DNA from: a virus
Reading direction: 5' to 3' (one strand)
DNA length: 28,814 bases
Virus genome (UHGV): UHGV-0268820
Shown: positions 11,638-28,460 of the stretch, piece by piece
Numbering within the stretch: position 1 is the stretch's first letter
How the letters are laid out: each line of letters opens with the position of its first letter
The notes under the pieces: model-generated
Database searches by the model: none
Told to the model about the DNA's origin: nothing
The model's input: the letters and a program-made list of their open reading frames with translations, nothing else
Program-made: the position numbers and the translations under genes

Positions 11638-12189
11638 ATGGCACTCACCGACAAGCAAGAAATGTTCTGTCGCGAGTACCTCATCGATTTAAACGCCACA
11701 CAAGCGGCTATTCGGGCGGGGTACAGCGCAAAGACAGCTAACCGTACCGCATCCGAAAACCTGTCAAAACCTGACATCAAGTTAAGAATCGCCGAACTGA
11801 AAGCGCAACGCAATGATCTTATTGGTATTAATGCAGAATATGTACTTAATCGCCTTATTGAAATCGACCAGATGGATGTGCTCGACATTCTCCTGCAAAA
11901 CGGTGAGCTAAAGCCCATTAAAGACTGGCCTAAGGTATGGCGCACAACGCTATCAGGAATGGATGTCGTGGAGATGGCATCCGCAGATAGCGCCGCACTT
12001 CTGAAGAAAATCAAATGGCCTGATAAGGTTAAAAACCTTGAATTGCTCGGGCGTCATGTTTCTGTTCAGGCGTTTAAAGACAATGTCAAAAATGAAGTGA
12101 CTGGTGCTGACGGAGGACCAGTCAGAACAGAAATTACCAACTTAACGCCGGAGCAGGCTGCAGAGGCGTATAGAAAAATGATGGGCTAA
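11638..12189 (+). CDS. terminase small subunit (Terminase_2 / P27-like family)
   Basis: N-terminus [30 protein letters not shown]... is the hallmark of this TerS family; immediately followed by the large subunit. Confidence 0.8.
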
Positions 12190-12191
12190 GT

Positions 12192-13814
12192 ATGCCGTTA
12201 CCATTCCCCTTCGATTTTAAACATCCTGATTACCAGATGGTTTTTGAATGGCGGATGGAACGCCTACAGCGCATTCGCCAGAATCCTGAAATATTGCCCG
12301 TATTGAAGCAGTTTTACCGAACCAATCCGGCTCAGTTCATCATCGACTGGGGCATGACAACGGACCCGCGTAATATTGATTATGGCCTTCCGGTGACCAT
12401 TCCGTTTTTACTCTTCCCTAAGCAGGAGGAGTGGATCCACTGGATTATGGAACGCTGGAGCAATCGGGAGAATGGTATTACCGAAAAATCCCGTGAAATG
12501 GGGCTCAGTTGGACCGCGATCGGACTGGCCTGCTCGCTTTGTCTCTTCAACAAAGAAATGGTTATCGGTTTCGGCTCCCGTAAAGAGGAATACGTCGACA
12601 GCACTGGTGACCCGAAAGCATTGTTCTGGAAGGCACGCAAGTTCGTGGAAACGCTACCTGTAGAGTTTCGCGGTTCGTGGAGTGAGAAGAAGCACGCGCC
12701 ATATATGCGTGTTGAGTTTCCTGAAACTGGTGCCGTTATCAAAGGCGAGGCTGGCGATAATATTGGTCGTGGTGACCGTACCACGCTTTATCTGGTTGAT
12801 GAGGCTGCATTCCTTCAGCGTCCTCTGCTGATTGATGCGGCGTTGTCACAAACGACGCGTTGCCGTATCGACCTGAGTTCAGTTAACGGCATGGCTAACC
12901 CGTTCGCTCAGAAGCGTCATGGCGGGAAGATACCGGTATTCACATTCCACTGGCGGGATGATCCTCGCAAGGATGAAGAGTGGTATCGCAGGGAATGCGA
13001 GAAAATCGATAATCCGGTGGTGGTGGCACAGGAACTTGATCTGAACTACAGCGCATCAGCGGAAGGCGTTCTGATTCCATCCGAATGGGTACAGGCTGCC
13101 GTTGATGCGCATATCAAACTGGGTATCCAGCCAACAGGCAAACGACTTGGCGCGATGGATGTCGCCGACGAAGGCAGGGACAAAAATGCCTTTTCCACCC
13201 GTCATGGCTTCCTCCTGGAAAATGTGCGGGAATGGTCCGGTGTGGGCAGCGACATTTATCAGTCCGTCGAGAAGGTTTTCGGCTTTTGCGAACAGGACAA
13301 CCTCGAAGAGTTTCGCTTTGACGAGGACGGGCTGGGCGCTGGCGTTCGCGGCGATGCACGCGCTATCAACGAACTGCGTAACGCTGCGCGTCGACCGTCA
13401 ATACTCGCCACACCGTTTCGAGGTAGTGGCGCGGTATTTGATCCGGATGATGAAGCTGTTCGCGGGGACAACGGGCAAGCCGCACGTCTGAACAAGGACT
13501 TCTTCGCTAACGCCAAAGCCCAGAGCTGGTGGCGGTTACGTAAACTTTTTCAGAATACCTGGCGCGCCGTGGTTGAAGGTATGGCTTACAACCCGGACGA
13601 AATCATCTCAATCAGCAGTAGCATGGCACTCAAAGATAAACTCATCATCGAGCTTTCGCAGCCGACCTATTCCATTAATGGTGTGGGAAAAATCGTTATT
13701 GATAAACAGCCTGATGGAACCCGGTCGCCAAACCTTGCCGACTCGGTGATGATCAGCTACGCGCCAATGAATTCAGCCCTGAACATCTGGGAGCTGCTAG
13801 GGAGACAGGCCTGA
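12192..13814 (+). CDS. terminase large subunit
   Basis: 540 aa; Walker-B-like LYLVDEAAF; acidic residues in the C-terminal half consistent with a nuclease domain; position between terS and portal. Confidence 0.75.
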
Positions 13815-15280
13815 TGGCACGAAACAAACAAGCCCTGCGGCGAACTGCGCAGGCCACAGCTGATGGTTATGAGAATTTTATTGCCCGCGTAGGGATGCAG
13901 ACACCTAACCAGCACTCAGCATCCACCTACCGGGCTAATTTCACCAGTCGTAACCGCATGCTGGTGGAATGGTCCTATCGTTCGTCCTGGATCATCGGCG
14001 AAGCGGTCGATGCTATCCCGGATGATATGACCCGCAAAGGCATTCGCATCACTTCGGAAATTGATGCAAAAGATCGCGGCATTCTCGAATCACAACTGGA
14101 TGAGTTGCAAATCTGGGATGCGCTGAACGACGTGCTGAAATGGTCTCGCCTCTACGGCGGCGCGGTCGGTTTCATCATGATTGAGGGGCAGGCACCAATG
14201 ACCCCGCTGCGACCCGAAACCATCGGTAAGGGCAAGTTTAAGGGGATTCTCCCGCTCGACCGCTGGATGATTGACCCGGTACTGACCCGCCGCATTAAAG
14301 ATATGGGGCCGGACCTGGGTAAACCTGAGTTTTACGATGTGGTGACCACAGCAACGGGAATTCCTGCCTGGCGCATTCATCACAGTCGACTGATTCGCTT
14401 TGATGGCGTCACGCTGCCATTTCAGCAGAAGATGACCGAGAACGAATGGGGAATGTCGGTTGTAGAGCGTATCTGGGATCGTCTTACCGCGTTCGACAGC
14501 GCTACTGTCGGCGCGGCGCAGCTGGTCTACAAAGCGCATTTGCGTACCTACAGCGTGGAGAAGCTACGCGAGCTTATCGCACTTGGTGGTCCTGCGTATG
14601 AAGCGTTGCTGAAGAATATCGACCTGATTCGACAGTTCCAGAGTAATGAAGGCATGACGCTCATGGACTCGCGGGATAAGTTTGAAACCCATCAGTACAG
14701 CTTCAGTGGTCTGGATGACATCCTTTCACAGTTTGCAGAACAGATTAGTGGCGCTGTTGGTATCCCACTGGTGCGGTTGTTCGGACAGTCCCCGAAAGGA
14801 TTTTCTACCGGCGATGCAGACCTTGCCAACTATTACGATCGGGTAAGCTCGTTGCAGGAGAGACGTTTACGTCTTCCGGTGCGGCGGATACTGGACATCA
14901 TGCATCGTTCGGAACTTGGCAAGCCGCTGCCGGACGATTTCACGTTTGAGTTTAACCCGCTCTGGCAAATGTCTGATGTCGATCGCTCAACGGTGGCGTT
15001 AAACACCACCAACGCAATCAGTACAGCGCTGGGTGATGGTCTGATGACACTGAAAGCCGCTATGACCGATTTGCGCGAAAATTCTGACGTAACCGGCATC
15101 GGGGCATCCATTACCGACGAGGACATCGAGAATGCCGAAGACGAAGCGCCGCCCGGCATCGGCGAACCTGATGACGAACCGCAGGAACCGTCAGGCGGAA
15201 ATCCGCTATCGAACCAGCCTACGCAGGATAGCGCGGGCGGTCGGAGACATCGTAAATGGTCGCTACGATGGTTCAAATGA
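13814..15280 (+). CDS. portal protein
   Basis: 488 aa; gene order after terL; acidic C-terminal tail (DEDIENAEDEAPPGIGEPDDEPQEP) typical of portals. The 3' end (15132-15280) overlaps the next ORF out of frame, so the true stop is uncertain. Confidence 0.7.
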   Translation: MARNKQALRRTAQATADGYENFIARVGMQTPNQHSASTYRANFTSRNRMLVEWSYRSSWIIGEAVDAIPDDMTRKGIRITSEIDAKDRGILESQLDELQIWDALNDVLKWSRLYGGAVGFIMIEGQAPMTPLRPETIGKGKFKGILPLDRWMIDPVLTRRIKDMGPDLGKPEFYDVVTTATGIPAWRIHHSRLIRFDGVTLPFQQKMTENEWGMSVVERIWDRLTAFDSATVGAAQLVYKAHLRTYSVEKLRELIALGGPAYEALLKNIDLIRQFQSNEGMTLMDSRDKFETHQYSFSGLDDILSQFAEQISGAVGIPLVRLFGQSPKGFSTGDADLANYYDRVSSLQERRLRLPVRRILDIMHRSELGKPLPDDFTFEFNPLWQMSDVDRSTVALNTTNAISTALGDGLMTLKAAMTDLRENSDVTGIGASITDEDIENAEDEAPPGIGEPDDEPQEPSGGNPLSNQPTQDSAGGRRHRKWSLRWFK

Positions 15281-15905
15281 CAGTATCACGGAAATTATTG
15301 AGGCGCTGGAACGCTACAGTGAAATCATAACCCCCTGGGCGACAAAGGTCGCGGAAAACTTTACCGCCGACATTGTGCGCAAGAATGATGAGCAGTGGCG
15401 TAAACACAGCAAAACCATCAGCCGTGAGCTACGCAATCTGGTAAACAGTGCCCCTCCAGGGCAGGTGATGAAATCCATCGTTGCTGAACAGGTTAAGTAC
15501 ATCAAATCGCTCCCCCTCGAGGCAGCTGACAGGGTGTACGACATCCAGAATCGGGCGATAGAAGCTGTTGTTACCGGTGGGAGAGCGGAACATTTTGCTA
15601 AAGAAATAGCCGCATCGGGTGATATAGCAAAGTCCAGAGCTGACCTGATTGCCCGTACTGAACTTGGACGTGCAACCGGCGCGCTGGATCAGGCGCGTGC
15701 GCTGTCAATTGGTTCGAATGGTTATATCTGGCGTACAGCCGAAGATGGTGACGTCAGGCATTCTCATCGGGAAATGGAAGGTAAATTTGTCGAATGGGGC
15801 AAACCTCCAACGCTTGATGGCATGACCGGTCACGCTGGCGAGCTCCCGAATTGTCGCTGTTATAAAGAAATCGTTTTTCCCTCCTCCCATTCTTATCCCG
15901 CCTGA
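15132..15905 (+). CDS. head morphogenesis protein (Mu gpF / SPP1 gp7-like)
   Basis: C-terminal motif ...WRTAEDGDVRHSHREMEG...GHAGELPNCRCY is characteristic of the Mu F-like family; start uncertain because of the 149-nt overlap with the portal ORF. Confidence 0.65.
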   Translation: MPKTKRRPASANLMTNRRNRQAEIRYRTSLRRIARAVGDIVNGRYDGSNDSITEIIEALERYSEIITPWATKVAENFTADIVRKNDEQWRKHSKTISRELRNLVNSAPPGQVMKSIVAEQVKYIKSLPLEAADRVYDIQNRAIEAVVTGGRAEHFAKEIAASGDIAKSRADLIARTELGRATGALDQARALSIGSNGYIWRTAEDGDVRHSHREMEGKFVEWGKPPTLDGMTGHAGELPNCRCYKEIVFPSSHSYPA

Positions 15906-15919
15906 ATCGCAGGTAACAC

Positions 15920-17140
15920 ATGAAATATTTTTTCAATACCCGGCTGGGGGAAACCCGCTATCAGCTGGCTGACGGCTCGTTGCTGTGCAAAGACGTGCCG
16001 ATAGGACGAACAGGTAAGCAGCTCTATGGTGCTGATGACCTGCCAAAACTGAAACCCGATAAGTTCGGTGAAATAGTCGTCACGCGATCTCCTGAGCAGG
16101 TATTCCATCCCGCCACGCTTGCCTCATTCGAAGGAATGAGTATCACGGTGTTGCATCCCGAGGATGAAAACGGGGATGTGCGGCTGGTAAATCCCGAGAA
16201 CTGGAAAGAGCTTGCTGTCGGGCACCTCCAGAATGTCCGGCGCGGGACGGGTGAGCAGTCTGATTTGATGCTGGCTGACCTTATCGTCAAAGACGAAAGC
16301 GCCATTCAGCTTATCGAAGATGGCCTGCGTGAAGTGTCGTGCGGCTATGACGCGGAGTACGAGCAGACCGAGCCAGGTAAAGCCGAGCAGGTCGATATTA
16401 CCGGAAACCATGTGGCTCTTGTCCCCAAAGGCAGAGCCGGAAATCGTTGTGCAATTGGAGACAGAGACACAATGGCAAATCAAAAGAAAAACTGGTGGAA
16501 CCGCATGCGTGCAGCCATCAAGACAGGAGATGCCGACACCATGAACGAACTGGTGGAGTCGGCTCCCGCATCGGTTACAGGAGATGAGGGGGATTTGCCG
16601 CAGGGCGTTAATCTCAACATCAACCTGTCCCCGCAGCAACCACTACCGGACAAAGCACCAGAGATGGGTGGAGGTCCAACCGGCGACAGTGATGATGACC
16701 TCAAAACATTACTGAAAGCCCTGCTGGCTAAGCTGGAAGGAAATGCCACGGGCGATAACGATAATAAGCCTGACGATAATCCGACCGGTGACGGCGAGGA
16801 CGATGAAGAGGAAACCACGATTACTGGTGACTCAGCCTGGCGTGCCGAAGTTATCGTTCCGGGTATCGATCTGAGCCGTAAGATGAAACCGACCGAGTTC
16901 AAACGCGAGGTTCTGGCTTCCGCAGATAAAACGCTGGTTCGCCAGATCGTCGGTGATGCGGATATCCGCAAATTGCCGAAACAATCGGTCGACATGGCGT
17001 TTAATGCCGTGTCTGAGATTGCCAAAGGGCGAAACACCCGCGCCACCACCGGCGATGCACAGCGCCTAAACATGGGCATGACCAGTATCGCTTCCCTGAA
17101 CAAACAAAACGCTGAATTCTGGGCAAACCGTAAAGGGTAA
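15920..17140 (+). CDS. putative prohead protease/scaffolding protein (DUF2213-like N-terminal domain with acidic low-complexity scaffold region)
   Basis: 406 aa; central D/E/G-rich tract (GDSDDDLKTLLKALLAKLEGNATGDNDNKPDDNPTGDGEDDEEE); located between the MuF-like and capsid genes. Confidence 0.5.
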   Translation: MKYFFNTRLGETRYQLADGSLLCKDVPIGRTGKQLYGADDLPKLKPDKFGEIVVTRSPEQVFHPATLASFEGMSITVLHPEDENGDVRLVNPENWKELAVGHLQNVRRGTGEQSDLMLADLIVKDESAIQLIEDGLREVSCGYDAEYEQTEPGKAEQVDITGNHVALVPKGRAGNRCAIGDRDTMANQKKNWWNRMRAAIKTGDADTMNELVESAPASVTGDEGDLPQGVNLNINLSPQQPLPDKAPEMGGGPTGDSDDDLKTLLKALLAKLEGNATGDNDNKPDDNPTGDGEDDEEETTITGDSAWRAEVIVPGIDLSRKMKPTEFKREVLASADKTLVRQIVGDADIRKLPKQSVDMAFNAVSEIAKGRNTRATTGDAQRLNMGMTSIASLNKQNAEFWANRKG

Positions 17141-17143
17141 AAA

Positions 17144-17650
17144 ATGAATAATGTATTTCTGTACCGGATGCCTGTTGGCATTGCCGGGGCTGTCTCTCGC
17201 CCGCAGGACTTAACCGTCGAACCGGTGGTCCTTAAATCCGATAACGCCTTCGCTGCCTATGGGCTGGCTGGTAAATACGATGATGACGGTTTTTTCGTGC
17301 CGCTGGCAGATGGTGATACCGCAGACAAGGTGAAGGGGATCTACGTGCGCCCTTATCCGACCACTTCGCAGCCGGACATGGTTCGCCAGGTGGGGAGTGG
17401 CAAGAACTTCCCGGGCGACGCCATGAAGCGTGGCTACGTGACCGTTAATCTCGGTTCTGATTTTGATGCCAGCACCATCAAAAAAGGCGACCCGGTATAC
17501 GTTGTCGTCTCCACTGATGAATCCATCAAAGTGCCGCTGGGTGGATTCATGTCCACGTCAGTCAGTGGCAAAAATGTGGTGCTGACCAACGCTGAATTCA
17601 CAGGTGCCGGTGATGCTGACGGCAATGCAGAAATTTCCTGGAAGATTTAA
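17144..17650 (+). CDS. putative head decoration/accessory capsid protein
   Basis: 168 aa Gly-rich protein immediately upstream of the major capsid gene; assignment by position and composition only. Confidence 0.4.
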   Translation: MNNVFLYRMPVGIAGAVSRPQDLTVEPVVLKSDNAFAAYGLAGKYDDDGFFVPLADGDTADKVKGIYVRPYPTTSQPDMVRQVGSGKNFPGDAMKRGYVTVNLGSDFDASTIKKGDPVYVVVSTDESIKVPLGGFMSTSVSGKNVVLTNAEFTGAGDADGNAEISWKI

Positions 17651-17661
17651 GGAACAGACGA

Positions 17662-18603
17662 ATGATTACTTTTGATCAGGCAACCGTTGACAGCTCTGGT
17701 GCCTTTCTCATCGGGGAGCTGGAGCGACTCGACCAGACGCTGAACCTGCCACTGGTGGGGTACACCTGGACCCGCGATATTCAGTTGCGTGAAGATGTCT
17801 CTATCGCAGATGACATTTCCAGCTGGACGAATACCAGCTTCGCCGCTGCGGGTACTGGTGCAAATCCGAATGGCAAAAACTGGGTAGGCAAAGACTCAAC
17901 CGCTATTGCTGGCGTGAACGTGGATATCGGCAAATCCGGTAACCCGCTGAACCTGTGGGGGATGGAACTTGGCTGGACGGTCATAGAATTGCAGGCTGCT
18001 CAGCAGGTCGGCCGCCCGATTGATACGCAGAAGTATGACGGTATGCAACTGAAATGGCAGATGGATAACGATGAACAGGTATATGTTGGCGATTCCGCAT
18101 TAAACCTGAAAGGCCTTGTTACCCTGGACGGCGTGCCTGTCAACAACGCTGCCAAAACGTGGGCAACCTCAACACCGGACGAAATCCGCGCAAGCATTAA
18201 CCAGGTGCTGTCTGATGCGTGGGCCGCTTCCGGTTACTCTGTGGTTCCGCGTGATTTGCTAATCCCGCCTGAGCAGTTTGCTCTGTTGTCCAGCATCATC
18301 GTTTCATCTGCAGGTAACCAGTCCCTGTTGACGTACCTTCAGACCAACACCATCAGCTATCACCAGAACGGTGTTCCGCTGAATATACGCGCGGTTAAAT
18401 GGCTGAAAGGCCGTGGTGTGGGGAAAAAGGATCGCATGGTTGCGTACACCAACGATAAAAAATACGTCCGCTACCCGCTGGTTCCGCTTCAGAGCGTGCC
18501 GGTGCAGTATCGCGGTCTGTATCAGATCGTCACTTACTACGGCAAGCTGGGTGCGGTTGAGCCAGTGTACAAAGAAACCCTTTCGTACGTTGATGGCATT
18601 TAA
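17662..18603 (+). CDS. major capsid protein (DUF2184-like)
   Basis: 313 aa; position after the scaffold and decoration-like genes; followed by an intergenic stem-loop, as often seen after highly expressed capsid genes. Confidence 0.65.
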   Translation: MITFDQATVDSSGAFLIGELERLDQTLNLPLVGYTWTRDIQLREDVSIADDISSWTNTSFAAAGTGANPNGKNWVGKDSTAIAGVNVDIGKSGNPLNLWGMELGWTVIELQAAQQVGRPIDTQKYDGMQLKWQMDNDEQVYVGDSALNLKGLVTLDGVPVNNAAKTWATSTPDEIRASINQVLSDAWAASGYSVVPRDLLIPPEQFALLSSIIVSSAGNQSLLTYLQTNTISYHQNGVPLNIRAVKWLKGRGVGKKDRMVAYTNDKKYVRYPLVPLQSVPVQYRGLYQIVTYYGKLGAVEPVYKETLSYVDGI

Positions 18604-18644: not shown

Positions 18645-18866
18645 ATGGCAAAAAATAATGCAGTAATACACGTACATACCCCGTTTGTGCTCACGCTTCC
18701 CGACGGTTCGCGGCGCGAGTTTGTTAAAGGCCGTCATGCTGTGGAGGAAGACGTTGCCACGCACTGGTTCACTCGTGCGCACGCGGAAGTATCCGTTGGC
18801 AAAGCCACAGACGCGCGTAACGAGGTAAAAAATGCCAAAGAATCAAAGTCTGCCAGCGGTAAGTGA
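18645..18866 (+). CDS. hypothetical small structural-module protein (73 aa)
   Basis: ORF with an RBS-like AAGGATGA upstream; position between capsid and connector genes; no recognisable domain. Confidence 0.45.
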
Positions 18867-19239
18867 TTTTCGCCGCGACTTCCCGCAGTTTGCTGACCCT
18901 GCCAAATATCCCGAAGCGCAAATCCAGTTTCGTCTGAATCTGGCCGATGAACTGCTGAGCGAAAACGTCACCAGCAAAAAGTTGTTTCCGTACTTTGCCG
19001 GATTGTTCGTTGCGCACTACATGACGCTCTGGGCGGCAGACAGCCGGGCGATGCTGGCTGGCGGGCCGGGCGGTTCAACCAATGGTGTTCAGTCCTCAAA
19101 GTCCGTGGATAAGGTAAGCGTCAGTTATGACACCAGCGCGACGCTGAATCCTGATGCAGGTTTCTGGAATAACACCCGATATGGCGCTGAATTTTATCAG
19201 TTGATCACGATGTTCGGTGCAGGTGGTCGCCAGCTATGA
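18832..19239 (+). CDS. putative head-tail connector/adaptor protein (DUF4054-like)
   Basis: 135 aa; position and size; overlaps the upstream ORF by 35 nt. Confidence 0.45.
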
Positions 19240-19790
19240 GTTTCAAAAGCGGTGTAACAACGAGGGTGGATAACGCTAAGGCCATTCTGGATGCGCTCAG
19301 GTCGTTAACCAAAAAAGATGTGCTGGTCGGCATCCCTTCGGAAGACAGCGGGCGGGATGATGTTCCGTTTGGTAATGCGGGCATCGGTTACCTCAACGAA
19401 TACGGCTCACCAGAGCAGAACATCCCGCCACGACCTCACCTGGTCCCCGGCGTTAAATCGGCAGAAGAGCAGACGGTGCCGCAGCTCAAAACCGCGGCGC
19501 AGGCTGCTCTTGATGGTAATGCTGCGGGAGCAGAACGCGCACTCAACCGTGCCGGAACGCTGGCCGCTAATGGCGTCAGGCGTTACATGACTATTACCGG
19601 CTTTACGCCGCTTGCTGACAGCACTGTTGAAGCCCGGGCTCGTCGGGGGCGCAAGGGGGCAACACTGGAACTTGCCCGGCGTGTTGCTGGCGAATCTCCC
19701 GGAACCGATCTGGCGAAACCATTAATTGACACCGGGCAATATCGCAGAGCGATTACCCATGTAGTGAGGGATAAAGATGCCGACTCTTGA
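19236..19790 (+). CDS. hypothetical virion morphogenesis protein
   Basis: 184 aa; ATGA coupling with the upstream gene; position in the head-tail joining cluster. Confidence 0.45.
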
Positions 19791-20166
19791 TGTAACAGAT
19801 GTGCTTTTTGACCCCGATTTTTGCGACTTCAATTTGTGGGTAACACGCCGAGTGCAAACGGTGGATGAGGACGGGATCGGCAGCGACAGCGAAGTTAAAA
19901 AGCAGTTTGCCGGAGTCGTAACTGTTGATCGCTCTCTGGAAAACCGTCGTATGCAGGCCGGGCAGGTAATCAGTGGTGCAATTCTGATTGTGACGACTGA
20001 GCGACTGACGCAGGGACAGACTGGCCGTGATGCCGATATCGTGACGTATCAGGGCCGTGATTATCGTGTGACTTTCGTCGACCCGTATACAGCGTATGGT
20101 GCCGGATTCGTTCAGGCGCATTGTGAGTTGCTGCCGTTTGATGGGGGAATTCCGGTTGAGCAATAA
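19777..20166 (+). CDS. hypothetical head-tail joining protein
   Basis: 129 aa; overlaps the upstream gene end; position only. Confidence 0.45.
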   Translation: MPTLDVTDVLFDPDFCDFNLWVTRRVQTVDEDGIGSDSEVKKQFAGVVTVDRSLENRRMQAGQVISGAILIVTTERLTQGQTGRDADIVTYQGRDYRVTFVDPYTAYGAGFVQAHCELLPFDGGIPVEQ

Positions 20167-20704
20167 CACCAGCACAGAGCGCGGATGGCTGATACCAACC
20201 AGTGGCGATCCGGATTATGACGAAGCGCTCGACAGGCTGTTAAGCCAGTGGATGCGTAACGTTTCCGGTCTGTCTGCCGGGATGGTTCGTCCGCGCTGGC
20301 AGAAAGAGCAACCGCCACTGCTACCGGCTGAAACGAACTGGTGTGCGTTTGGGGTTATCGGATGGTCAGGTGATGACAGTCCGGCATTCACCAGACAGAC
20401 CGATGATGGCTCTCAGCTCTGGCGGCATGAAACGATTGAGTGTATGGCTTCGTTTTATGGTCCGGCGGGGATGGTGTATGCGTCCCGGTTTCGTGACGGT
20501 ATATCTGTACCGCAGAACAATGCAGCACTGAATGCGCTGGGGCTGTCTCTTGGCGATTACACAGGTCTGACTCCCTTCCCTGAACTTATTAATCAGCAAT
20601 GGGTCCGCCGCTACGATATGACGGTGCGTCTGCGCCGGAAGGTTGTGCGCGAGTACGGTATTAAATCGCTGGTGGAAGCACCAGTCATCTTTTTCGGAGA
20701 TTAA
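20141..20704 (+). CDS. hypothetical tail-completion/neck protein
   Basis: ORF open from 20096; start is ambiguous (ATG 20141, or TTG 20156 preceded by GGGGGA); position immediately before the tail sheath gene. Confidence 0.45.
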   Translation: MGEFRLSNNTSTERGWLIPTSGDPDYDEALDRLLSQWMRNVSGLSAGMVRPRWQKEQPPLLPAETNWCAFGVIGWSGDDSPAFTRQTDDGSQLWRHETIECMASFYGPAGMVYASRFRDGISVPQNNAALNALGLSLGDYTGLTPFPELINQQWVRRYDMTVRLRRKVVREYGIKSLVEAPVIFFGD

Positions 20705-20707: not shown

Positions 20708-21853
20708 ATGGCACAGGGCTTGCCTGTATCAAACGTTGTTAATGTTGATGTGATCATGTCGCCGCGTGCAGCATCAGGGCGAAATTTTGGTGCATTACTC
20801 ATTCTCGGCCCGTCCACAATCATTCCGGTAAGTGAGCGCATTCGTCGTTATTCTGCCGCGGAAGATATTGGAAAAGATTTTGGCGTGGAATCACCAGAAT
20901 ATAAAGCTGCGCAGGTGTTTTTCTCACAATCACCGAAACCTCAGGAGGTTTTTGTTGGTCGTTGGGTGAAAACGAAGGGAGACAGCGAACAGGCCACGCC
21001 TGAGACGCTGGAGAAGGCTGTGAATGCCATGCTTGATTATACTTCATGGTATGGGCTGGGGATTGCAGACGATGCAGATATTCCGGATGCAGACTGGCTG
21101 AAAGTGGCTGCGGCGATCGAATCCTCTTCTGTAAGCCGTATTCTGGCGATTACGACAAGCGATGAGAAATGCCTGCAGACTGCATCCAGCGATGATTTGG
21201 CATCAAAACTGAAAACCGCCGGATATTCACGCAGTTTTATTCAGTATTCATCGGGTAATAAATACGCTGCGTTATCTGCATTTGGCCGGGCATTCACGGT
21301 TAATTTCAATGGCAGTAATACCGCGATTACGCTCAAGTTTAAGCAGGAGCCGGGTGTCGGGTATGAAACACTGACAGTCAGCCAGGCATCGGCACTTGAT
21401 GCAAAAAACTGCAATGTGTTCGTGTACTACCAGAATGATACAGCTATCCTCCAGCAGGGAGTGATGGCTAACGGCGATTTCTTTGATGAACGCCACGGCC
21501 TGGACTGGTTACAGAATTATGTGCAGACCAACCTCTATAACCTGCTTTATACCAGCACCACGAAGGTTCCCCAGACTGAAGCCGGTATTACCCGACTGTT
21601 ATCAAATGTTGAAAAATCACTGGATCAGGCCGTTCAGAATGGACTGATTGCTCCGGGCGTATGGAACGGGGGCGACCTTGGCCAGTTGTCATCAGGTGAC
21701 ACGCTGCCCAAAGGTTATTACGTATACGCCCAGCCGCTGGATGAACAGGCACGATCAGAACGTGAAGCCCGTAAGGCTCCGGTGATTCAGGCTGCAATAA
21801 AACTTGCAGGCGCGGTTCATTACGCTGACGTACAGATTAACGTTGTTCGCTAA
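20708..21853 (+). CDS. tail sheath protein (DUF3383-like)
   Basis: 381 aa; followed by a tube-like gene, a chaperone pair with frameshift, and a tape measure gene - the canonical contractile-tail order. Confidence 0.7.
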
Positions 21854-21863: not shown

Positions 21864-22304
21864 ATGTCTACCTATTCTTTTATGGATGTCACTGCGACGC
21901 TGACCGGGCCGACCGGTTCGATTGACCTCGGGTACGGTTCTGCAAGTTCTGAAGAGGGGATTGTGGTTGCGATGGGCGGCCCTAAAAACACCATGACCAT
22001 CGGTGCTGATGGCGAAGTGATGCACAGTCTCCATGCAGATAAAAGCGGGACGATTACCGTTAACCTTCTGAAGACATCACCGACAAATAAAAAATTGTCG
22101 CTGGCGTATAACGCACAGAGCCAGTCTTCTGCCACATGGGGGAATAACGTTATCGTGATCCGCAACAAGGTCAGCGGCGACATCATCACGGCACGTAGTG
22201 TTGCGTTCCAGAAACAACCGGATAATGCCAACGCTAAAACCGGTAATACGATGCCGTGGGTGTTTGACTGCGGCAAGATTGACCAGGTTCTCGGGGAGTT
22301 TTAA
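21864..22304 (+). CDS. tail tube protein (DUF3277-like)
   Basis: 146 aa; position between sheath and chaperone genes. Confidence 0.65.
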   Translation: MSTYSFMDVTATLTGPTGSIDLGYGSASSEEGIVVAMGGPKNTMTIGADGEVMHSLHADKSGTITVNLLKTSPTNKKLSLAYNAQSQSSATWGNNVIVIRNKVSGDIITARSVAFQKQPDNANAKTGNTMPWVFDCGKIDQVLGEF

Positions 22305-22307: not shown

Positions 22308-22760
22308 ATGGAATTCGAAATTAAAGGCGTGAAATATCGCGTGGCAAAACTCAGCGTTTTTGACCAGCTGAAAGTGACCCGCAAACTTCTGCCGGTACTG
22401 GCGGGAATGATGTCAGATTTCGGGAGCATTCGCTCCCGTTTGCCTGCTGATGGCAAAATCGACACCGTGAAATTCGAGCAGTTAAAACCGGTGTTTGAAA
22501 CCATGCTCCCGCGTATCGCTGAGGAACTGTCTTCCCTGACTGAAGAAGATACCAACGCGATTATTCATCCTTGCCTGGCTGTAGTATCACGTAAGCACAT
22601 GGACGGATGGACGCCGGTATTCAACAGCGGTCAGCTGATGTTCGATGATATCGACCTGCTGGTCATGCTGCAGCTGGTGGCGCGGGTGGTCGCCGATTCA
22701 CTGGGAAATTTTTTGCCTACACCCCTTACCAGCACGACACAGAGCCTGCAACAGGGCTGA
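22308..22760 (+). CDS. tail assembly chaperone (short, in-frame product)
   Basis: 150 aa; located between the tube and tape measure genes; contains a slippery heptamer near its 3' end and an open -1 frame downstream. Confidence 0.7.
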   Translation: MEFEIKGVKYRVAKLSVFDQLKVTRKLLPVLAGMMSDFGSIRSRLPADGKIDTVKFEQLKPVFETMLPRIAEELSSLTEEDTNAIIHPCLAVVSRKHMDGWTPVFNSGQLMFDDIDLLVMLQLVARVVADSLGNFLPTPLTSTTQSLQQG

Positions 22761-22948
22761 CGTTTAACAGCCTGCCGGACGGGCTGTCCTACCTTCTCAA
22801 TCCGGTTGACGCCGGGTTAATTCCTTATACAGCACTTAAAGATGGCTCTGTCGATTTGTATGACATTGCTCTCTTGAATGACCATCTGGCGGTAAAAGCG
22901 GATAACCAGCGACGCATTGAGAAATGGAGAGAGGATAATGAACGCTGA
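22308..22948 (+). CDS. tail assembly chaperone, -1 frameshift-extended product (lambda G-T / Mu gp41-42 analogue)
   Basis: Slippery heptamers A_AAT_TTT / T_TTT_TTG at about 22704-22713; the -1 frame is open from there with no start codon for about 78 codons, to a TGA just inside the tape measure gene start (about 22946-22948). Confidence 0.5.
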
Positions 22949-24944
22949 AACTATTAAAGATTTCCTCGTCTCGCTTGGCTTCAGTGTGGATGATGCAGGA
23001 GCGAAAAAGTTCGGTTCTGTCCTCGCCGGTACAACTGCAAATGTCATCAAAATGGGGCTGGCTGTTGAAGGGGCTGCGCTGTCCGTGGTGGCCTTCACGG
23101 CTAAGATCGCCTCCGGCCTGGATAATCTTTACTGGGCGTCACAGCGCACCGGCGCGACGGTCCAGGGAATTCAGTCTATTGGCTATGCGGTTTCGCAGGT
23201 TGGCGGCAGTGTGGACGCTGCGCGATCTTCTCTGGAAAGCCTCTCCCGGTTTATTCGTAACAATCCCGGAGCAGAAGGCTTTCTGAATCGCCTGGGCGTA
23301 CAGACCCGTGATGCCAGCGGTAACATGCGTGACATGGCTGCTATCTTTACGGGCGTTGGACAGAAACTCAGCAGCATGCCGTATTACCGGGCTAACCAGT
23401 ATGCGCAGATGCTGGGCATTGACGAAAATACCCTGATGGCTATGCGTCGCGGAGTGGGGCAGTTCAGCGCTCAGTATTCAGAAATGGTGAAAGCGATCGG
23501 ATTTAATGCCGATCAGGCTGCCTTATCGTCAAACCGGTTTATGACCTCGCTGAAATCGCTCGGTGAAATGGCCAGGATGGCGCGGGACAAAATCGGATCG
23601 AATCTTGCGGACGGACTGGCGGGGCAGATTGATAACCTGCGCAAAAAGATAATTGAAAATTTTCCCAAAATTGAAGTCACCATCACAAAGGTCATAAAGG
23701 GGATCCTCTGGCTGGGTGAGATAGTCGGGCGGGTAGCATTTCGGATAGTCGATGGTGTCGGAGATATCATCGAGTGGTGGGGGAAACTGGATGCCGAAAC
23801 GAAAACCCTGATAGAGGTTATCGGCGGTCTGGTTGTCGCCATGCGGATACTTAACTCTACTTTCTGGATGTCACCTATAGGGCTGATTACTGGTCTGATC
23901 GTGGCTCTCGGTCTCTTGTGGGAAGACTACAAAACATGGAAAGAAGGCGGTAACAGCCTTATCGACTGGGAAAAATGGCAACCGGCAATAGATAAAGCGA
24001 AGGATGCGATCACCTGGCTTCGTGATCACCTTCTGGAACTAAAAGATGGTGTTGGCGGCTGGCAAAATGCACTGGAAATCCTCGGTACATTCATCGCGGG
24101 TGTCTGGGTATCCAGGGTTCTGGGGGCTTTCGGAAAAATATCAGGTTTACCGATCCCACCCTGGCTTAAATTGTGGGCGCTTTACGCGGGCTATATTGTT
24201 AGTGACAGAGAAAATATTGCCGATAGCGCAAAATCTTCACTGAGGTATACGAAGCGAATTATCGGCGACACGCTGGCTGCTATTGGTATAAAAACAGATA
24301 TCGGACGCAGGGATGTCAGTGAGGTCCGTGAATGGCCTGCGTGGATGGACTGGTTGCACGGGGGACCCGGTAAAGTTATCCGGCAGGGACAGAGTAACGG
24401 TGTAGTGCATGGCTCCAACGTCCAGCCCGACATCCCCGGCGGCGGCACTCTTGCTGATCGCAACAATAACCCCGGGAACATTCGCCCGGTGAGCGGTAAA
24501 GGGTTCCGGTTTTTCGAATCAGCGCTTGAGGGCTGGGAGGCGATGAAAAACCAGCTCATGCGTTACTTTACCGGGAAAACAACCGGACGGGCATTACAGA
24601 CTATTCAGGATATTGTCAGTACCTGGGCCCCGGCAGGTGATAACAACGATCCGAAAAAGTATGCACAGGATGTTGCGAAATGGATGGGAGTATCACCGAA
24701 TGCAATATTGAATCTTACAGATCCCCGGACTATGGGAGCATTGATGCAGTCGATGGCGCGCAAAGAAGGTTATTCAAACTGGAACAGCCCGCTGGCGTAT
24801 CAGGCCGCCGCTGGCAGCCTTAACCAGCAGACTGTTATAAATGTTCATGGAGTTAACAACCCTCAGGAGGCGGCTAATCTGATTGCTGACAAGCAGGGGG
24901 CTGTAAATGCCAGGGCGGTACAGCAATTGAAAGGGCCTGCGTGA
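22938..24944 (+). CDS. tail tape measure protein
   Basis: 668 aa from ATG 22938 (strong RBS GGAGAGAGG; the track start 22917 lacks an RBS); alpha-helical N-terminal half, hydrophobic central segments (LIEVIGGLVVAMRILNSTFWMSPIGLITGLIVALGLLW), globular C-terminal domain. Confidence 0.8.
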   Translation: MNAETIKDFLVSLGFSVDDAGAKKFGSVLAGTTANVIKMGLAVEGAALSVVAFTAKIASGLDNLYWASQRTGATVQGIQSIGYAVSQVGGSVDAARSSLESLSRFIRNNPGAEGFLNRLGVQTRDASGNMRDMAAIFTGVGQKLSSMPYYRANQYAQMLGIDENTLMAMRRGVGQFSAQYSEMVKAIGFNADQAALSSNRFMTSLKSLGEMARMARDKIGSNLADGLAGQIDNLRKKIIENFPKIEVTITKVIKGILWLGEIVGRVAFRIVDGVGDIIEWWGKLDAETKTLIEVIGGLVVAMRILNSTFWMSPIGLITGLIVALGLLWEDYKTWKEGGNSLIDWEKWQPAIDKAKDAITWLRDHLLELKDGVGGWQNALEILGTFIAGVWVSRVLGAFGKISGLPIPPWLKLWALYAGYIVSDRENIADSAKSSLRYTKRIIGDTLAAIGIKTDIGRRDVSEVREWPAWMDWLHGGPGKVIRQGQSNGVVHGSNVQPDIPGGGTLADRNNNPGNIRPVSGKGFRFFESALEGWEAMKNQLMRYFTGKTTGRALQTIQDIVSTWAPAGDNNDPKKYAQDVAKWMGVSPNAILNLTDPRTMGALMQSMARKEGYSNWNSPLAYQAAAGSLNQQTVINVHGVNNPQEAANLIADKQGAVNARAVQQLKGPA

Positions 24945-26937: not shown

Positions 26938-27269
26938 AAAAAGTATTTTTTTGTTTATTCTTGGCCCTGCCGTTAACAGTTTCGGCGGCAACGCAGTGCG
27001 GACCATTCCGCTTTGATGCTGGTAATGATGGCCTCATGCACATCAATGGTCAAAAGCCAGAAACACAAAAAATGACCTTTTTGAAACAAAAAGACGATTT
27101 CGATAATGTCATGATGCAATGGATGTTACCTGATCCTAATACTGGACGTTGGTTAGGTATGGACTACATCAAACGAAACAAAAAAGCGATCCTCAACGTT
27201 GAAGTTATCCGCAAAAATATGGACGAGCCTCGGGAGTTCTGGACGTATGATTGCCGGAAGGTGAAGTGA
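26934..27269 (+). CDS. small secreted protein with Sec signal peptide (moron cargo, unknown function)
   Basis: GTG start overlapping the previous stop (GTGA); N-terminus MKKVFFCLFLALPLTVSAATQ has an n-h-c signal peptide with an AxA-like cleavage site; two Cys in the mature part; coding sequence AT-rich relative to the flanking tail genes. Confidence 0.55.
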   Translation: MKKVFFCLFLALPLTVSAATQCGPFRFDAGNDGLMHINGQKPETQKMTFLKQKDDFDNVMMQWMLPDPNTGRWLGMDYIKRNKKAILNVEVIRKNMDEPREFWTYDCRKVK

Positions 27270-27344
27270 ATTACATTGGCGTCCAGCTTCTGCAGAACAG
27301 CATGGATGCACCGAAAATCATCGGTTCCTTTCCATGCAAAAAGA

Positions 27345-27372
27345 TTGTTGATTAATCACTCGTAATTATAAT
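27345..27372 (+). promoter_or_regulatory. sigma70-like promoter (TTGTTG-16-TATAAT) internal to the tail gene cluster, driving the small membrane-protein gene
   Basis: TTGTTG at 27345-27350 and TATAAT at 27367-27372 in a 139-bp AT-rich intergenic region; AAGGA RBS before ATG 27409. Confidence 0.45.
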
Positions 27373-27408
27373 GTGATACTTCTACTTTCACGATAAGGAA
27401 TTTGTCAC

Positions 27409-27648
27409 ATGTTCGGATTTGATAAATTAATAACTCCAAAAATCATCAACGTTCTGTATGGCATCACAATGTTACTTCTGGTTGTTGCCGCCATTATAAC
27501 GTTTGTTAATGGGAAGGCTGCTGGCGCTTTAGTGCTTTTGTTATGTGCTGTATTTTGCCGAATATTCTTTGAGTGCATCATGGTTTCATTTAAAAACAAT
27601 GAGTATCTTCGCCGAATAGCTGAAGCGTTAGAAGCAAACAAGCAGTAA
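27409..27648 (+). CDS. small inner-membrane protein with two predicted TM helices (moron cargo, unknown function)
   Basis: 79 aa; two hydrophobic stretches (VLYGITMLLLVVAAIITFV and ALVLLLCAVFCRIFFECIMV); own promoter and terminator; AT-rich. Confidence 0.6.
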   Translation: MFGFDKLITPKIINVLYGITMLLLVVAAIITFVNGKAAGALVLLLCAVFCRIFFECIMVSFKNNEYLRRIAEALEANKQ

Positions 27649-27664
27649 TGAAACTTCAATAATG

Positions 27665-27689
27665 AACCCGCCACCCGGCGGGTTTTTTA
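27665..27689 (+). terminator. Rho-independent terminator closing the moron
   Basis: Stem AACCCGCC/GGCGGGTT with loop ACCC, followed by TTTTTT (27683-27688). Confidence 0.7.
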
Positions 27690-27707
27690 CTTTCTGGAGA
27701 CATATGA

Positions 27708-28460
27708 ATGCCCGTTTCTTTAAGCGCTCAACTTGGTAGCAAAGAACAGGCCGATGTAAGACTTGCTGGCTCTGTCATGTCGGCGCTGCGTGTTTCTATG
27801 CCCGGCATCGTCCAGTCATTTGATCCGGACACGGTAACAGTGGTTGTTCAACCTGCGATTAAAGGCTATGAGCCGGACTCAAATGGAATCAACCAGTCGA
27901 CGACATTACCCCTGCTGGTGGATGTACCAGTGGTATTCCCGCGCGGCGGAGGCTGTACGTTGACTTTTCCGGTAAAAGCCGGGGATGAGTGTCTTGTCGT
28001 TTTTGCCGATCGTTGTATTGATTTCTGGTGGCAGAGTGGCGGGATACAGGAGCCGGTCGATGACAGAATGCATGATTTATCGGATGCGTTTTGTATTGTC
28101 GGTCCCCAGTCGCAGGCGAGGAAGATTAGCGGTATTAATACCAGTGCCACACAGTTGCGTAGTGACGACGGCAGCACCTATTTTGAGCTTAATCCTGATA
28201 CCAGGAAAATTAAAATTGTCGCTCCGGGTGGTCTTGATGTGGTTGCCCCTCTGGCTGATTTTTCTGAGAAAGTAACCATTCATGGCCTGTTAACCTGGAT
28301 GGGGGGCATGGTGGGGTCTGTGGTTTCTGGTGTGGCTTCAAAAATCACTGGTGCTGTTGAGTTTTTGGGTAGCGTGAAGGCTAACGGCAAGCCAATCGAT
28401 GATACGCACACTCATGGTGGTGTTCAGCGCGGTGGAAGCAGTACCGACGGGGTAAACTGA
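27708..28460 (+). CDS. baseplate central spike/assembly protein (gpV / Gp138 N-terminal-domain-like)
   Basis: 250 aa; N-terminal region ...GIVQSFDPDTVTVVVQPAIKGY...LPLLVDVPVVFPRGGGCTLTFPVKAGDECLVVFADRCIDFWW resembles OB-fold spike N-domains; Gly-rich C-terminus; GGAGA RBS. Confidence 0.55.
   Translation: MPVSLSAQLGSKEQADVRLAGSVMSALRVSMPGIVQSFDPDTVTVVVQPAIKGYEPDSNGINQSTTLPLLVDVPVVFPRGGGCTLTFPVKAGDECLVVFADRCIDFWWQSGGIQEPVDDRMHDLSDAFCIVGPQSQARKISGINTSATQLRSDDGSTYFELNPDTRKIKIVAPGGLDVVAPLADFSEKVTIHGLLTWMGGMVGSVVSGVASKITGAVEFLGSVKANGKPIDDTHTHGGVQRGGSSTDGVN

What the first reader, a model, noticed from the sequence alone, without database searches (positions are those of the whole stretch)
22700..22948. 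Programmed -1 ribosomal frameshift site in the tail assembly chaperone gene
The chaperone ORF contains overlapping slippery heptamers (A AAT TTT / T TTT TTG) about 50 nt before its stop. The -1 frame is open from this point for about 78 codons with no start codon of its own and terminates just inside the tape measure gene start. This reproduces the conserved G/GT-type frameshift of tailed phages, here in a sheath-and-tube (contractile) tail module. Automated annotation would miss the fused product.
Basis: partly seen in the sequence, partly recalled or inferred. Interest (0 to 1): 0.5.

Follow-up and report, generated by a model that had tools for sequence, protein, structure and literature searches.

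The report
Tail chaperone −1 ribosomal frameshift site
A prophage tail-assembly chaperone gene contains a conserved slippery run where some ribosomes probably slip back one base to make a longer second protein, a well-known phage strategy that automatic annotation misses here.

Summary
The 150-codon chaperone ORF (22308-22760) lies between the tube gene and the tape measure gene.

The -1 frame runs on for 77 codons to TGA 22946-48, inside the tape measure start (ATG 22938). It has no usable start codon. The 213-aa fusion matches Pfam Phage_TAC_15 plus DUF6889.

- **Slippery site conserved.** T_TTT_TTK is in register in 69 of 69 unique relatives (47-99% protein identity).
- **Extension conserved.** It is intact in 66 of 69.
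- **Coding frame switches.** Third-position variability moves from the 0 frame to the -1 frame at the site.
- **Codon choice is biased.** Rare GGA and TTG codons are almost fixed there.
- **Distant relatives agree.** Phages at 30-40% identity keep the two-frame layout with other heptamers at the same LGxF motif.
- **No RNA structure.** None is conserved; an upstream Shine-Dalgarno-like GGGTGGTC is only suggestive.

This is the lambda G/GT and P2 E/E+E' mechanism (P2 uses TTTTTTG). GenBank records of phages Mulock and Magia already annotate it. PGAP and PHROGs split off the extension as an orphan ORF. It is a new member of a known kind, of low to moderate interest. No experiment supports it yet.

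The parts
22308..22760 (+). Tail assembly chaperone ORF, the short 0-frame product (150 aa), analogous to lambda gpG and P2 gpE
   Evidence: Pfam Phage_TAC_15 E=6e-32. PHROG 1688 'tail assembly chaperone' E=6e-66. It lies between the tube gene and the tape measure gene.
22703..22715 (+). Slippery run G_GGA_AAT_TTT_TTG: three overlapping in-frame heptamers (G_GGA_AAT 22703-09, A_AAT_TTT 22706-12, T_TTT_TTG 22709-15)
   Evidence: Read directly from the sequence. T_TTT_TTK is in register in 69/69 unique relatives, and the other two heptamers in 64/69. Codon choice at the site: GGA 64/69 against 10% of Gly codons elsewhere, TTG 63/63 Leu against 11%, TTT 69/69 against 51%, AAT 65/65 against 38%.
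22715..22948 (+). -1 frame extension of 77 codons plus stop TGA 22946-48, read only after the shift (analogous to lambda T and P2 E'); the fusion product is 213 aa
   Evidence: Translation. The extension is conserved as protein in 66/69 relatives. Third-position variability follows the -1 frame: entropy 0.66/0.57/1.34 by codon position. There is no ATG/GTG/TTG before 22856.
22823..22939 (+). DUF6889 domain within the extension (fusion residues 173-211)
   Evidence: Pfam PF21829 E=9e-20. PHROG 4364, function unknown, E=2e-23.
22684..22691 (+). Putative upstream Shine-Dalgarno-like stimulator GGGTGGTC, 11, 14 and 17 nt before the three heptamers (inferred, weak)
   Evidence: Predicted duplex with the 16S 3' tail is -12.2 kcal/mol. 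The family mean at this offset is -9.6 against a background of -2.0. The window's value is more stable than 98% of synonymous recodings, but divergent relatives show no such enrichment.
22938..24944 (+). Tape measure protein gene; its start overlaps the end of the extension (ATGAACGCTGA)
   Evidence: PHROG 2276 'tail length tape measure protein' E=2e-248. ATG and upstream GGAGAGAGG are read from the sequence, and this stretch is invariant in the five aligned phages.
21864..22304 (+). Tail tube gene (context)
   Evidence: Pfam PF11681 (KPP10_Orf10, also named Phage_Tube_PhiTE) E=9e-61.
20708..21853 (+). Tail sheath gene (context)
   Evidence: Pfam DUF3383 E=1e-100. PHROG 205 'tail sheath' E=5e-135.

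Best explanation

Most ribosomes read 22308-22760 and release a 150-aa chaperone. A minority slip back one nucleotide on GGGAAATTTTTTG (22703-22715). The most likely slip has tRNA-Phe in the A site on UUU 22710-12 (heptamer A_AAU_UUU). A slip one codon later on U_UUU_UUG, the P2 motif, may also occur. After the slip the ribosome reads 77 further codons in the -1 frame to TGA 22946-48.

The result is a 213-aa protein. Its N-terminal part is the chaperone and its C-terminal part is the DUF6889 domain. The junction reads ...SLGNFFAYTPY..., or ...GNFLAY... if the shift is on UUG.

By analogy with lambda gpG/gpGT, both forms would coat the tape measure protein. The rare long form would use its extra domain to recruit tube subunits. 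The frameshift efficiency would set a fixed ratio of short to long form.

What is shown: the sequence anatomy, the conservation, the selection on the -1 frame and on the slippery nucleotides, and the absence of a conserved RNA structure. What is inferred: that the shift is ribosomal, which codon it occurs on, its efficiency, and the function of DUF6889.
For: - **Anatomy and gene order:**
- **Slip site and extension conserved:** in 69 unique relatives (47-99% chaperone identity) T_TTT_TTK is in register in all. The extension is 76-82 codons in 66 and always ends at the tape measure start. All 80 viral contigs examined carry T6.
- **Codon periodicity switches at the site:** entropy by codon position is 0.64/0.39/1.28 in the 0 frame upstream and 0.66/0.57/1.34 in the -1 frame downstream. 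The -1 pattern already holds in the 42-nt overlap.
- **Slippery codons nearly fixed:** rare GGA and TTG codons dominate at the site.
- **No own start codon:** 39/69 loci have no ATG in the -1 frame before the domain, and the window has no standard start before 22856.
- **Each heptamer is enough somewhere:** the Bordetella phage has only G_GGA_AAT as a heptamer, the Acinetobacter phage has G_GGA_AAT and A_AAT_TTT, and the Erwinia/Kalamiella prophages have only T_TTT_TTG. Burkholderia phages use C_CCT_TTT at the homologous LGxF motif.
- **Two frames in every phage record:** tblastn of the fusion against 50,697 phage records gives 40 hits, each made of two pieces.
- **A one-base insertion joins the frames:** a contig with T7 instead of T6 encodes the predicted 213-aa fusion in one frame, with junction GNFFAY.
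- **Precedent:** P2 E/E+E' shifts at TTTTTTG without a hairpin (PMC3091744). In E. coli the best motifs allow cognate A-site re-pairing, which includes H_HH.U_UU.Y (PMC4066793). The lambda G:GT ratio is 30:1 (PMC5009743).
Against: No protein, ribosome-profiling or reporter data exist for this element or for any member of this family. All the evidence is comparative.

U_UUU_UUG is not among the most efficient motifs measured in E. coli. No conserved stimulatory RNA structure was found, so the efficiency may be low.

The exact shift codon cannot be fixed from sequence. A homopolymer of six T also allows some transcriptional slippage.

The structure prediction of the fusion was unusable (pLDDT 45). 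The proposed role of DUF6889 therefore rests on analogy only.
Confidence: 0.85

Rival explanations
1. The -1 ORF is an independent small gene (a 50-60-aa DUF6889 protein) with its own non-canonical start, as RefSeq/PGAP and several phage records annotate it.
For: PGAP calls a 54-aa CDS from a CTG codon, equivalent to window 22784. Protein databases hold stand-alone ORFs of 43-78 aa, and PHROG 4364 is built on them. Some relatives have an ATG about 29 codons after the slip site.
Against: The annotated N-termini are inconsistent: 43, 46, 50, 54, 58, 62, 63, 73 and 78 aa.

39/69 loci have no ATG before the domain. The window has no ATG/GTG/TTG until 22856, which would truncate the domain.

The residue at the PGAP CTG start is Glu in most relatives.

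-1 frame constraint and openness begin at the slippery run, about 70 nt upstream of any proposed start. This rival does not explain why the slippery codons are fixed.
Confidence: 0.05
2. The long product arises by transcriptional slippage. RNA polymerase adds one U in the T6 run, which gives an mRNA with the two frames joined, rather than the ribosome slipping.
For: The site is a homopolymer (A3T6; T7 in a few relatives). A DNA variant with T7 does encode the in-frame fusion. Runs of seven A or seven U are avoided in E. coli genes, partly because of transcriptional slippage (PMC4066793).
Against: Six T is shorter than the runs that, from my own knowledge, usually give efficient polymerase slippage (about 8-9 or more).

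Distant relatives keep the two-frame layout with only T4 (C_CCT_TTT-A in Burkholderia phages) or A3 (G_GGA_AAT-A in the Bordetella phage). In each case the motif is in the X_XXY_YYZ register of the 0 frame. Register dependence is expected for tRNA re-pairing and not for polymerase slippage.
Confidence: 0.07
3. The two frames are one gene broken by a one-base deletion or a homopolymer sequencing error. On this reading the gene is either a pseudogene or really a single 213-codon ORF.
For: One assembly (L154, from run SRR23924998) has T7 and a single 213-codon ORF.
Against: All other loci examined carry six T in register: 69 unique genomic and phage loci and 80 viral contigs. This includes finished genomes and isolated phages from many genera. 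The 0-frame stop is conserved about 40-60 nt downstream.
Confidence: 0.02

Closest known systems
Bacteriophage P2 gpE / gpE+E' frameshift (Christie et al. 2002; Xu, Hendrix & Duda 2004)
   Same: Both are in contractile-tail phages, with the site lying between the tube gene and the tape measure gene. [quoted passage not shown] Neither has a downstream hairpin (PMC3091744; for this window).
   Different: There is no detectable sequence relationship: only Phage_TAC_15 and DUF6889 match at E<=0.01. Here the short product is 150 aa, against 91 aa in P2. The T run is preceded by two further overlapping heptamers. The sheath, tube and baseplate are of the E217/KPP10/Pam3 type, not the P2 type. The P2 shift was shown experimentally (about 10%, from my own memory of the abstract); this one has not been tested.
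Bacteriophage lambda gpG / gpGT frameshift (Levin, Hendrix & Casjens 1993)
   Same: Both have overlapping chaperone ORFs just upstream of the tape measure gene. Both use a -1 shift on a G_GGA_AAN heptamer. The long form is rare, with a 30:1 ratio in lambda (PMC5009743).
   Different: Lambda uses G_GGA_AAG in a non-contractile tail. Here the matching heptamer ends in U, so the A-site re-pairing is only near-cognate, and it is probably not the main site. There is no sequence similarity.
Joined 'tape measure chaperone frameshift product' CDS in Klebsiella phage Mulock (MN098327) and Burkholderia phage Magia (MT701587)
   Same: These are true homologues: 59% and 30% identity to the fusion, each matched in two frames. 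Mulock has the identical GGGAAATTTTTTG. Both records annotate the joined CDS.
   Different: This is annotation only. The Mulock genome announcement does not mention the frameshift (PMC6856289). Magia uses C_CCT_TTT. The E. coli prophage copies, Salmonella phage SEN34, Yersinia phage YP3 and the vB_EcoM phages are not annotated this way.
E. coli dnaX and IS911/IS3 -1 frameshift signals with an upstream Shine-Dalgarno-like stimulator
   Same: A sequence able to pair with the 16S 3' tail (GGGUGGUC) lies 11-17 nt upstream of the heptamers. That falls within the 6-17 nt range searched for such stimulators (PMC4066793).
   Different: The evidence here is weak. Much of the pairing potential follows from the conserved Arg-Val-Val codons, and it is not enriched in divergent relatives. 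There is no downstream hairpin or pseudoknot, unlike dnaX and IS3.

Membership tests
Tail assembly chaperone G/GT-type programmed -1 frameshift (Xu, Hendrix & Duda 2004) | Two overlapping ORFs lie between the major tail/tube gene and the tape measure gene | tested here: met
   Tube 21864-22304, chaperone 22308-22760, -1 ORF to 22948, tape measure from 22938.
Tail assembly chaperone G/GT-type programmed -1 frameshift (Xu, Hendrix & Duda 2004) | [quoted passage not shown] | tested here: met
   Three overlapping heptamers at 22703-22715, 49-55 nt before the stop.
Tail assembly chaperone G/GT-type programmed -1 frameshift (Xu, Hendrix & Duda 2004) | The downstream ORF is in the -1 frame, is open from the slip site, and lacks its own start signal | tested here: met
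   Open 22649-22948. The first ATG/GTG/TTG is TTG 22856. 39/69 relatives have no ATG before the domain.
Tail assembly chaperone G/GT-type programmed -1 frameshift (Xu, Hendrix & Duda 2004) | The slip site and the two-frame layout are conserved among diverged relatives, with coding constraint on the extension | tested here: met
   Heptamer in 69/69 and extension in 66/69. Codon-position entropy switches frame at the site. Distant phages at 30-40% identity keep the layout.
Tail assembly chaperone G/GT-type programmed -1 frameshift (Xu, Hendrix & Duda 2004) | The fusion protein is made at a low fixed ratio, and both products are needed for tail assembly but absent from virions | not testable with these tools
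   Needs proteomics, a reporter assay and genetics. No paper held reports this for the family.
Pfam Phage_TAC_15 (PF21822) + DUF6889 (PF21829) | The score exceeds the curated gathering threshold | tested here: met
   111.3 bits against a cut-off of 22 for residues 6-136; 70.6 bits against a cut-off of 23.9 for residues 173-211 of the fusion.
Sequence families of lambda gpG/gpT or P2 gpE/E' | Detectable sequence similarity to those chaperone families | tested here: not met
   At E<=0.01 the Pfam scan of the fusion returned only PF21822 and PF21829. The PDB sequence search returned nothing at E<=1. The relationship is therefore one of mechanism and gene position, not demonstrable homology.
-1 frameshift signals with a downstream RNA stimulator (IS3, dnaX, viral pseudoknots) | A conserved hairpin or pseudoknot lies 5-9 nt after the heptamer | tested here: not met
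   RNAalifold on 45 unique sequences gives -1.4 kcal/mol with no helix near the site. Window folds have z between -0.64 and +0.42.
-1 frameshift signals with an upstream Shine-Dalgarno-like stimulator (dnaX, IS911) | A sequence pairing with the 16S 3' end lies about 6-17 nt upstream and is conserved beyond what the protein sequence requires | tested here: inconclusive
   GGGTGGTC at 22684-91 gives -12.2 kcal/mol. 95% of loci reach -6 or lower at this offset, against 5.9% of background positions. Against synonymous recoding the median percentile is 0.08, but divergent loci sit at 0.5-0.8.

The most novel reading that the evidence does not exclude
The site may be a composite signal rather than a single heptamer. 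It would consist of three stacked slippery heptamers, each sufficient on its own in some relative, plus an upstream Shine-Dalgarno-like GGGUGGUC acting as in dnaX. Together these would set a higher or more robust chaperone ratio without any downstream RNA structure. An rRNA-pairing stimulator has not been described for phage tail chaperone frameshifts as far as I know.
Probability: 0.2. Interest if true: 0.4.

Novelty: new member of a known kind. Interest (0 to 1): 0.22.

Why it matters
The mechanism is textbook, so the value is mainly in annotation and as a resource.

A widespread family of temperate contractile-tail phages carries this site. Matches were found in 364 of 5,426 complete E. coli genomes, in many other Enterobacterales, and more distantly in Acinetobacter, Burkholderia, Bordetella and Ralstonia phages. 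In nearly all records the second chaperone isoform is split off as an orphan 'DUF6889' or mislabelled 'NTP pyrophosphohydrolase' ORF with arbitrary starts.

Recognising the frameshift gives DUF6889 a likely role as the C-terminal domain of the long chaperone isoform. It corrects the gene models. It also supplies a natural series of alternative heptamers at one homologous codon, which could be used to study how slippery-site choice sets frameshift efficiency in bacteria.

Tried and rejected
1. **Downstream or upstream RNA structure as stimulator.** RNAalifold on 45 unique sequences and single-sequence folds with shuffles found nothing conserved or significant. Rfam had no hit in the window.
2. 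**A 50-nt block before the site.** It was invariant in the first five-phage alignment and looked like an RNA element. In the 69-locus set it varies at synonymous sites, so it is specific to one clade.
3. **Structure prediction of the fusion.** P0001 with a 53-sequence alignment gave mean pLDDT 45, so no fold search was run. The PDB sequence search found nothing.
4. **-1 frame stop codons as a way to pin the shift codon.** In L064 and L057 a -1 frame stop sits directly before the T run. On working it through, such a stop only excludes shifts whose A-site codon lies before the Asn/Asp codon. It does not separate the three heptamers. Only the loss of the upstream heptamers in those loci is informative.
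5. **Literature on this family.** Searches for DUF6889, the SEN34 paper and the Mulock announcement turned up no mention of the frameshift. Vladimirov et al. 2022, on an alternative mechanism in T4-like phages, is not held.
6. **Length of the open -1 frame compared with other genes in the window.** This was not informative, because abutting genes often occupy the neighbouring frame.

Full report
**1. What is in the sequence**

The + strand ORF 22308-22760 encodes 150 aa and ends at TGA 22758-60. In its frame the codons at 22701-22715 are CTG GGA AAT TTT TTG.

A third, G_GGA_AAT (22703-09), overlaps them. They lie 49-55 nt before the stop.

The -1 frame is open from 22649 to TGA 22946-48. After the run it encodes 77 residues, AYTPYQHDTEP...EKWREDNER. 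Its first standard start codon is TTG 22856, 30 codons from the end. The stop falls 8 nt inside the next gene, whose ATG is at 22938 behind GGAGAGAGG.

**2. Context**

The window is a lambdoid temperate phage or prophage. Its genes run in this order:

| Module | Genes and coordinates |
|---|---|
| Replication | O-like replication protein 370-1230; primase/helicase 1338-3218 |
| nin region and regulation | NinB, NinG, NinI, anti-repressor Ant, antiterminator Q (8183-8701) |
| Lysis | Holin, endolysin, spanin 9586-10803 |
| Head | Terminase, portal and head genes 11638-18603 |
| Neck | 18832-20704 |
| Tail | Sheath 20708-21853; tube 21864-22304; chaperone ORF; tape measure 22938-24944 |
| Baseplate | Dit-like, Pam3-gp18-like and E217-gp41-like proteins |

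The sheath matches Pfam DUF3383 and PHROG 'tail sheath'. The tube matches Pfam KPP10_Orf10, also named Phage_Tube_PhiTE. The tape measure matches PHROG 2276.

The 0-frame product matches Pfam Phage_TAC_15 (E=6e-32) and PHROG 1688 'tail assembly chaperone' (E=6e-66). The extension matches Pfam DUF6889 (E=9e-20) and PHROG 4364, a 54-position profile of unknown function.

Late genes in this window abut or overlap one another. The apparent 177-nt gap between the chaperone stop and the tape measure start is filled exactly by the -1 ORF.

**3. Relatives**

The 641-nt segment occurs at 80-98% identity in 364 of 5,426 complete E. coli genomes, always on the chromosome. It is also found in these phages:

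- Escherichia phages vB_EcoM-606R2 and related isolates (94%);
- Yersinia phage YP3 (88%);
- Salmonella phage SEN34, genus Brunovirus (79%), which electron microscopy shows to be a myovirus (PMC5261728);
- more distantly, Klebsiella phage Mulock.

A scan of one genome per species returned 68 loci from Enterobacter, Citrobacter, Pantoea, Photorhabdus, Serratia, Erwinia, Buttiauxella and others, with 47-91% chaperone identity. A viral-contig scan returned 80 close relatives.

**4. Conservation of the signal**

I compared 69 unique loci (the window, four phages and the genome loci).

- **Slippery site.** The heptamer T_TTT_TTK is in the same register in all 69: TTG in 63, TTT in 5, TTC in 1. G_GGA_AAT and A_AAT_TTT are present in 64.
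- **Open frames.** The -1 frame stays open 182-197 nt beyond the 0-frame stop in 66 of 69. The +1 frame usually closes within about 7-25 nt.
- **Exceptions.** The three exceptions look like decaying prophages: L013 has a truncated chaperone, L041 a premature stop in the extension, and L056 a deletion.
- **Viral contigs.** All 80 carry exactly six T.
- **Extension as protein.** It aligns across the family as ...LPDG..YL..PV.AG.I.Y..L.DG.VDL.DIA.MND.L..K.DN..RI..WR..NER.

Entropy by codon position shows where the coding frame changes:

| Region | Frame showing third-position wobble | Entropy at positions 1 / 2 / 3 |
|---|---|---|
| 144 nt before the site | 0 frame | 0.64 / 0.39 / 1.28 |
| 42-nt overlap after the site | -1 frame | 0.93 / 0.73 / 1.32 |
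| After the 0-frame stop | -1 frame | 0.66 / 0.57 / 1.34 |

The -1 reading is therefore under purifying selection from the slip site onward.

Codon choice at the site is far from the usage elsewhere in the same genes:

| Codon at the site | Frequency at the site | Share of that amino acid's codons elsewhere |
|---|---|---|
| GGA (Gly) | 64/69 | 10% |
| TTG (Leu) | 63/63 | 11% |
| TTT (Phe) | 69/69 | 51% |
| AAT (Asn) | 65/65 | 38% |

The loci are not phylogenetically independent. Even so, the contrast shows selection on the nucleotides rather than on the amino acids.

**5. No start codon of its own**

39 of 69 loci have no ATG in the -1 frame between the preceding stop and the DUF6889 domain. 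The window has no ATG, GTG or TTG there at all.

Databases hold the extension only as stand-alone ORFs of 43-78 aa with inconsistent N-termini. They are named 'DUF6889 family protein' or, without basis, 'NTP pyrophosphohydrolase'. RefSeq/PGAP starts its 54-aa CDS at a CTG codon, and that position is Glu in most relatives.

**6. The wider family**

tblastn of the predicted 213-aa fusion against 50,697 phage records found 40 records. In every one the match consists of two pieces in two frames, covering 84-100% of the query. Identity goes down to 30% in Acinetobacter, Burkholderia, Bordetella, Ralstonia, Providencia and Edwardsiella phages.

In eight of these the shift point falls at the homologous (N/S)LGxF motif, but the heptamer differs:

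| Phage | Slippery motif at the LGxF position |
|---|---|
| Burkholderia Magia, Burkholderia BgManors32, WC36-2 | C_CCT_TTT |
| Acinetobacter AbTJ | G_GGA_AAT + A_AAT_TTT |
| Bordetella IFTN9 | G_GGA_AAT (plus a T_TTC tetramer) |
| Providencia PSTCR3 | T_TTT_TTT |
| Ralstonia PY059YO380 | G_GGT_TTT + T_TTT_TTC |
| Edwardsiella ZHS | only the tetramer T_TTT |

Within Enterobacterales, five loci have lost the two upstream heptamers and keep only T_TTT_TTK. So each of the window's three heptamers serves somewhere without at least one of the others.

The common denominator is a Phe codon UUY preceded by U. This fits the rule measured in E. coli: the best -1 motifs allow cognate A-site re-pairing, and H_HH.U_UU.Y, which includes A_AAU_UUU, is among the most efficient (PMC4066793). 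U_UUU_UUG is the motif shown to work in P2 (PMC3091744).

I therefore place the shift within 22703-22715, most likely on UUU 22710-12 and/or UUG 22713-15. The first two heptamers give the junction GNFFAY and the third gives GNFLAY.

**7. A natural control**

One assembly from a public sequencing run (L154, protein P0001) has seven T instead of six. It encodes the predicted fusion as a single 213-codon ORF with junction GNFFAY and both Pfam domains. This confirms the frame relationship. It may be a homopolymer error or a real mutant.

**8. Stimulators**

No conserved RNA structure exists on either side of the site. RNAalifold on 45 unique sequences gives -1.4 kcal/mol downstream and 0 upstream. 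Window folds have z-scores between -0.64 and +0.42. This matches P2 and its relatives, for which no hairpin is found (PMC3091744).

A possible upstream element is GGGTGGTC (22684-91), which lies 11, 14 and 17 nt before the three heptamers.

- **For it.** Its predicted duplex with the 16S 3' tail is -12.2 kcal/mol. Across 66 unique loci the mean at this offset is -9.6, against a background of -2.0. 95% of loci reach -6 or lower, against 5.9% of background positions.
- **Against it.** Compared with synonymous recodings, the window lies at the 2nd percentile and the family median is 0.08. Divergent loci lie at 0.5-0.8, and much of the pairing potential follows from the conserved Arg-Val-Val codons.

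I treat this element as suggestive only.

**9. Rivals**

- **Independent initiation of the -1 ORF.** Sections 4 and 5 contradict it.
- **Transcriptional slippage.** It cannot be excluded by computation. It is disfavoured because relatives with only T4 or A3 keep the layout, with heptamers in the 0-frame register.
- **A broken single gene or sequencing error.** This is excluded by 149 independent loci that carry six T.

**10. Comparison with known systems and novelty**

This is the conserved tail assembly chaperone frameshift first shown for lambda G/GT and generalised by Xu, Hendrix and Duda 2004 (cited in PMC5009743). Its closest mechanistic match is P2 E/E+E'.

It meets every sequence-level criterion of that class. 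It shows no detectable sequence similarity to the lambda or P2 chaperone families.

Curators at the Center for Phage Technology already annotated the joined product in two homologues, Mulock and Magia. The Mulock announcement does not discuss it, and no paper held mentions DUF6889. A recent paper makes the same kind of argument for a different myovirus family (PMC12846349).

The finding is correct, and it is a new member of a known kind. Its practical value is in correcting gene models and assigning a role to DUF6889. The stacked heptamers and the possible Shine-Dalgarno-like stimulator are the only mildly unusual features.

**11. Limits**

No experimental data exist for this family. The efficiency, the exact shift codon and the function of the extension are inferred. 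The structure prediction failed (pLDDT 45).

Noticed in passing
L154:1895-1915 (Logan contig SRR23924998_45326), protein P0001: A close relative (95% identity) has seven T instead of six in the slippery run, so chaperone and DUF6889 are fused in one 213-codon ORF. This is either a homopolymer assembly error or a natural mutant that makes only the long form.
   Followed up: partly
window 22784-22948 and equivalents (proteins P0122-P0148): The -1 extension is deposited as stand-alone ORFs of 43-78 aa with differing starts, including a CTG start in RefSeq. Many are named 'NTP pyrophosphohydrolase', a label that nothing seen here supports and that seems to have spread by annotation transfer.
   Followed up: partly
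window 22684-22691: GGGTGGTC can pair with the 16S rRNA 3' tail (-12.2 kcal/mol) 11-17 nt upstream of the slippery heptamers. Strong pairing at this offset occurs in 95% of relatives, but it is only partly separable from the conserved Arg-Val-Val codons.
   Followed up: partly
L013 (Apirhabdus apintestini), L041 (Enterobacter sp. R1), L056 (Izhakiella australiensis): In these three loci the module is damaged: the chaperone is truncated at 47 aa, the extension stops after 37 aa, or a deletion runs the extension into 256 aa of other sequence. They are probably decaying prophages.
   Followed up: no
L017 (record titled Chryseobacterium sp. 18061), L072 (Bacillus sp. AFS073361, 395-nt contig), Elizabethkingia phage EKP1 (H57): Enterobacterial-type copies of this chaperone (56-78% identity, same slippery run in L017) sit in records assigned to Bacteroidota or Bacillota hosts. 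This suggests contamination or mislabelling rather than real host range.
   Followed up: no
window 13814-15280 and 15132-15905: The portal ORF and the next head-morphogenesis ORF overlap by about 149 nt as listed. The true start of the second gene is probably further downstream.
   Followed up: no
window 22917 vs 22938: The mechanical ORF list starts the tape measure gene at TTG 22917. The ATG at 22938, with GGAGAGAGG upstream, is invariant in the five aligned phages and is the likelier start. The C-terminal third of the tape measure protein (about residues 488-667) matches lytic transglycosylase/endolysin families.
   Followed up: partly
window 8701-9586, 10803-11638 and 27269-27708: These stretches have no ORF of 90 aa or more. 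No tRNA and no Rfam family was found anywhere in the window. The first stretch lies between the Q antiterminator gene and the holin gene, where lambdoid phages carry the late promoter.
   Followed up: no
window 3705-5176: An HNH endonuclease-like ORF and a phosphoadenosine-phosphosulfate-reductase-like ORF lie in the nin region between NinB and the anti-repressor gene.
   Followed up: no
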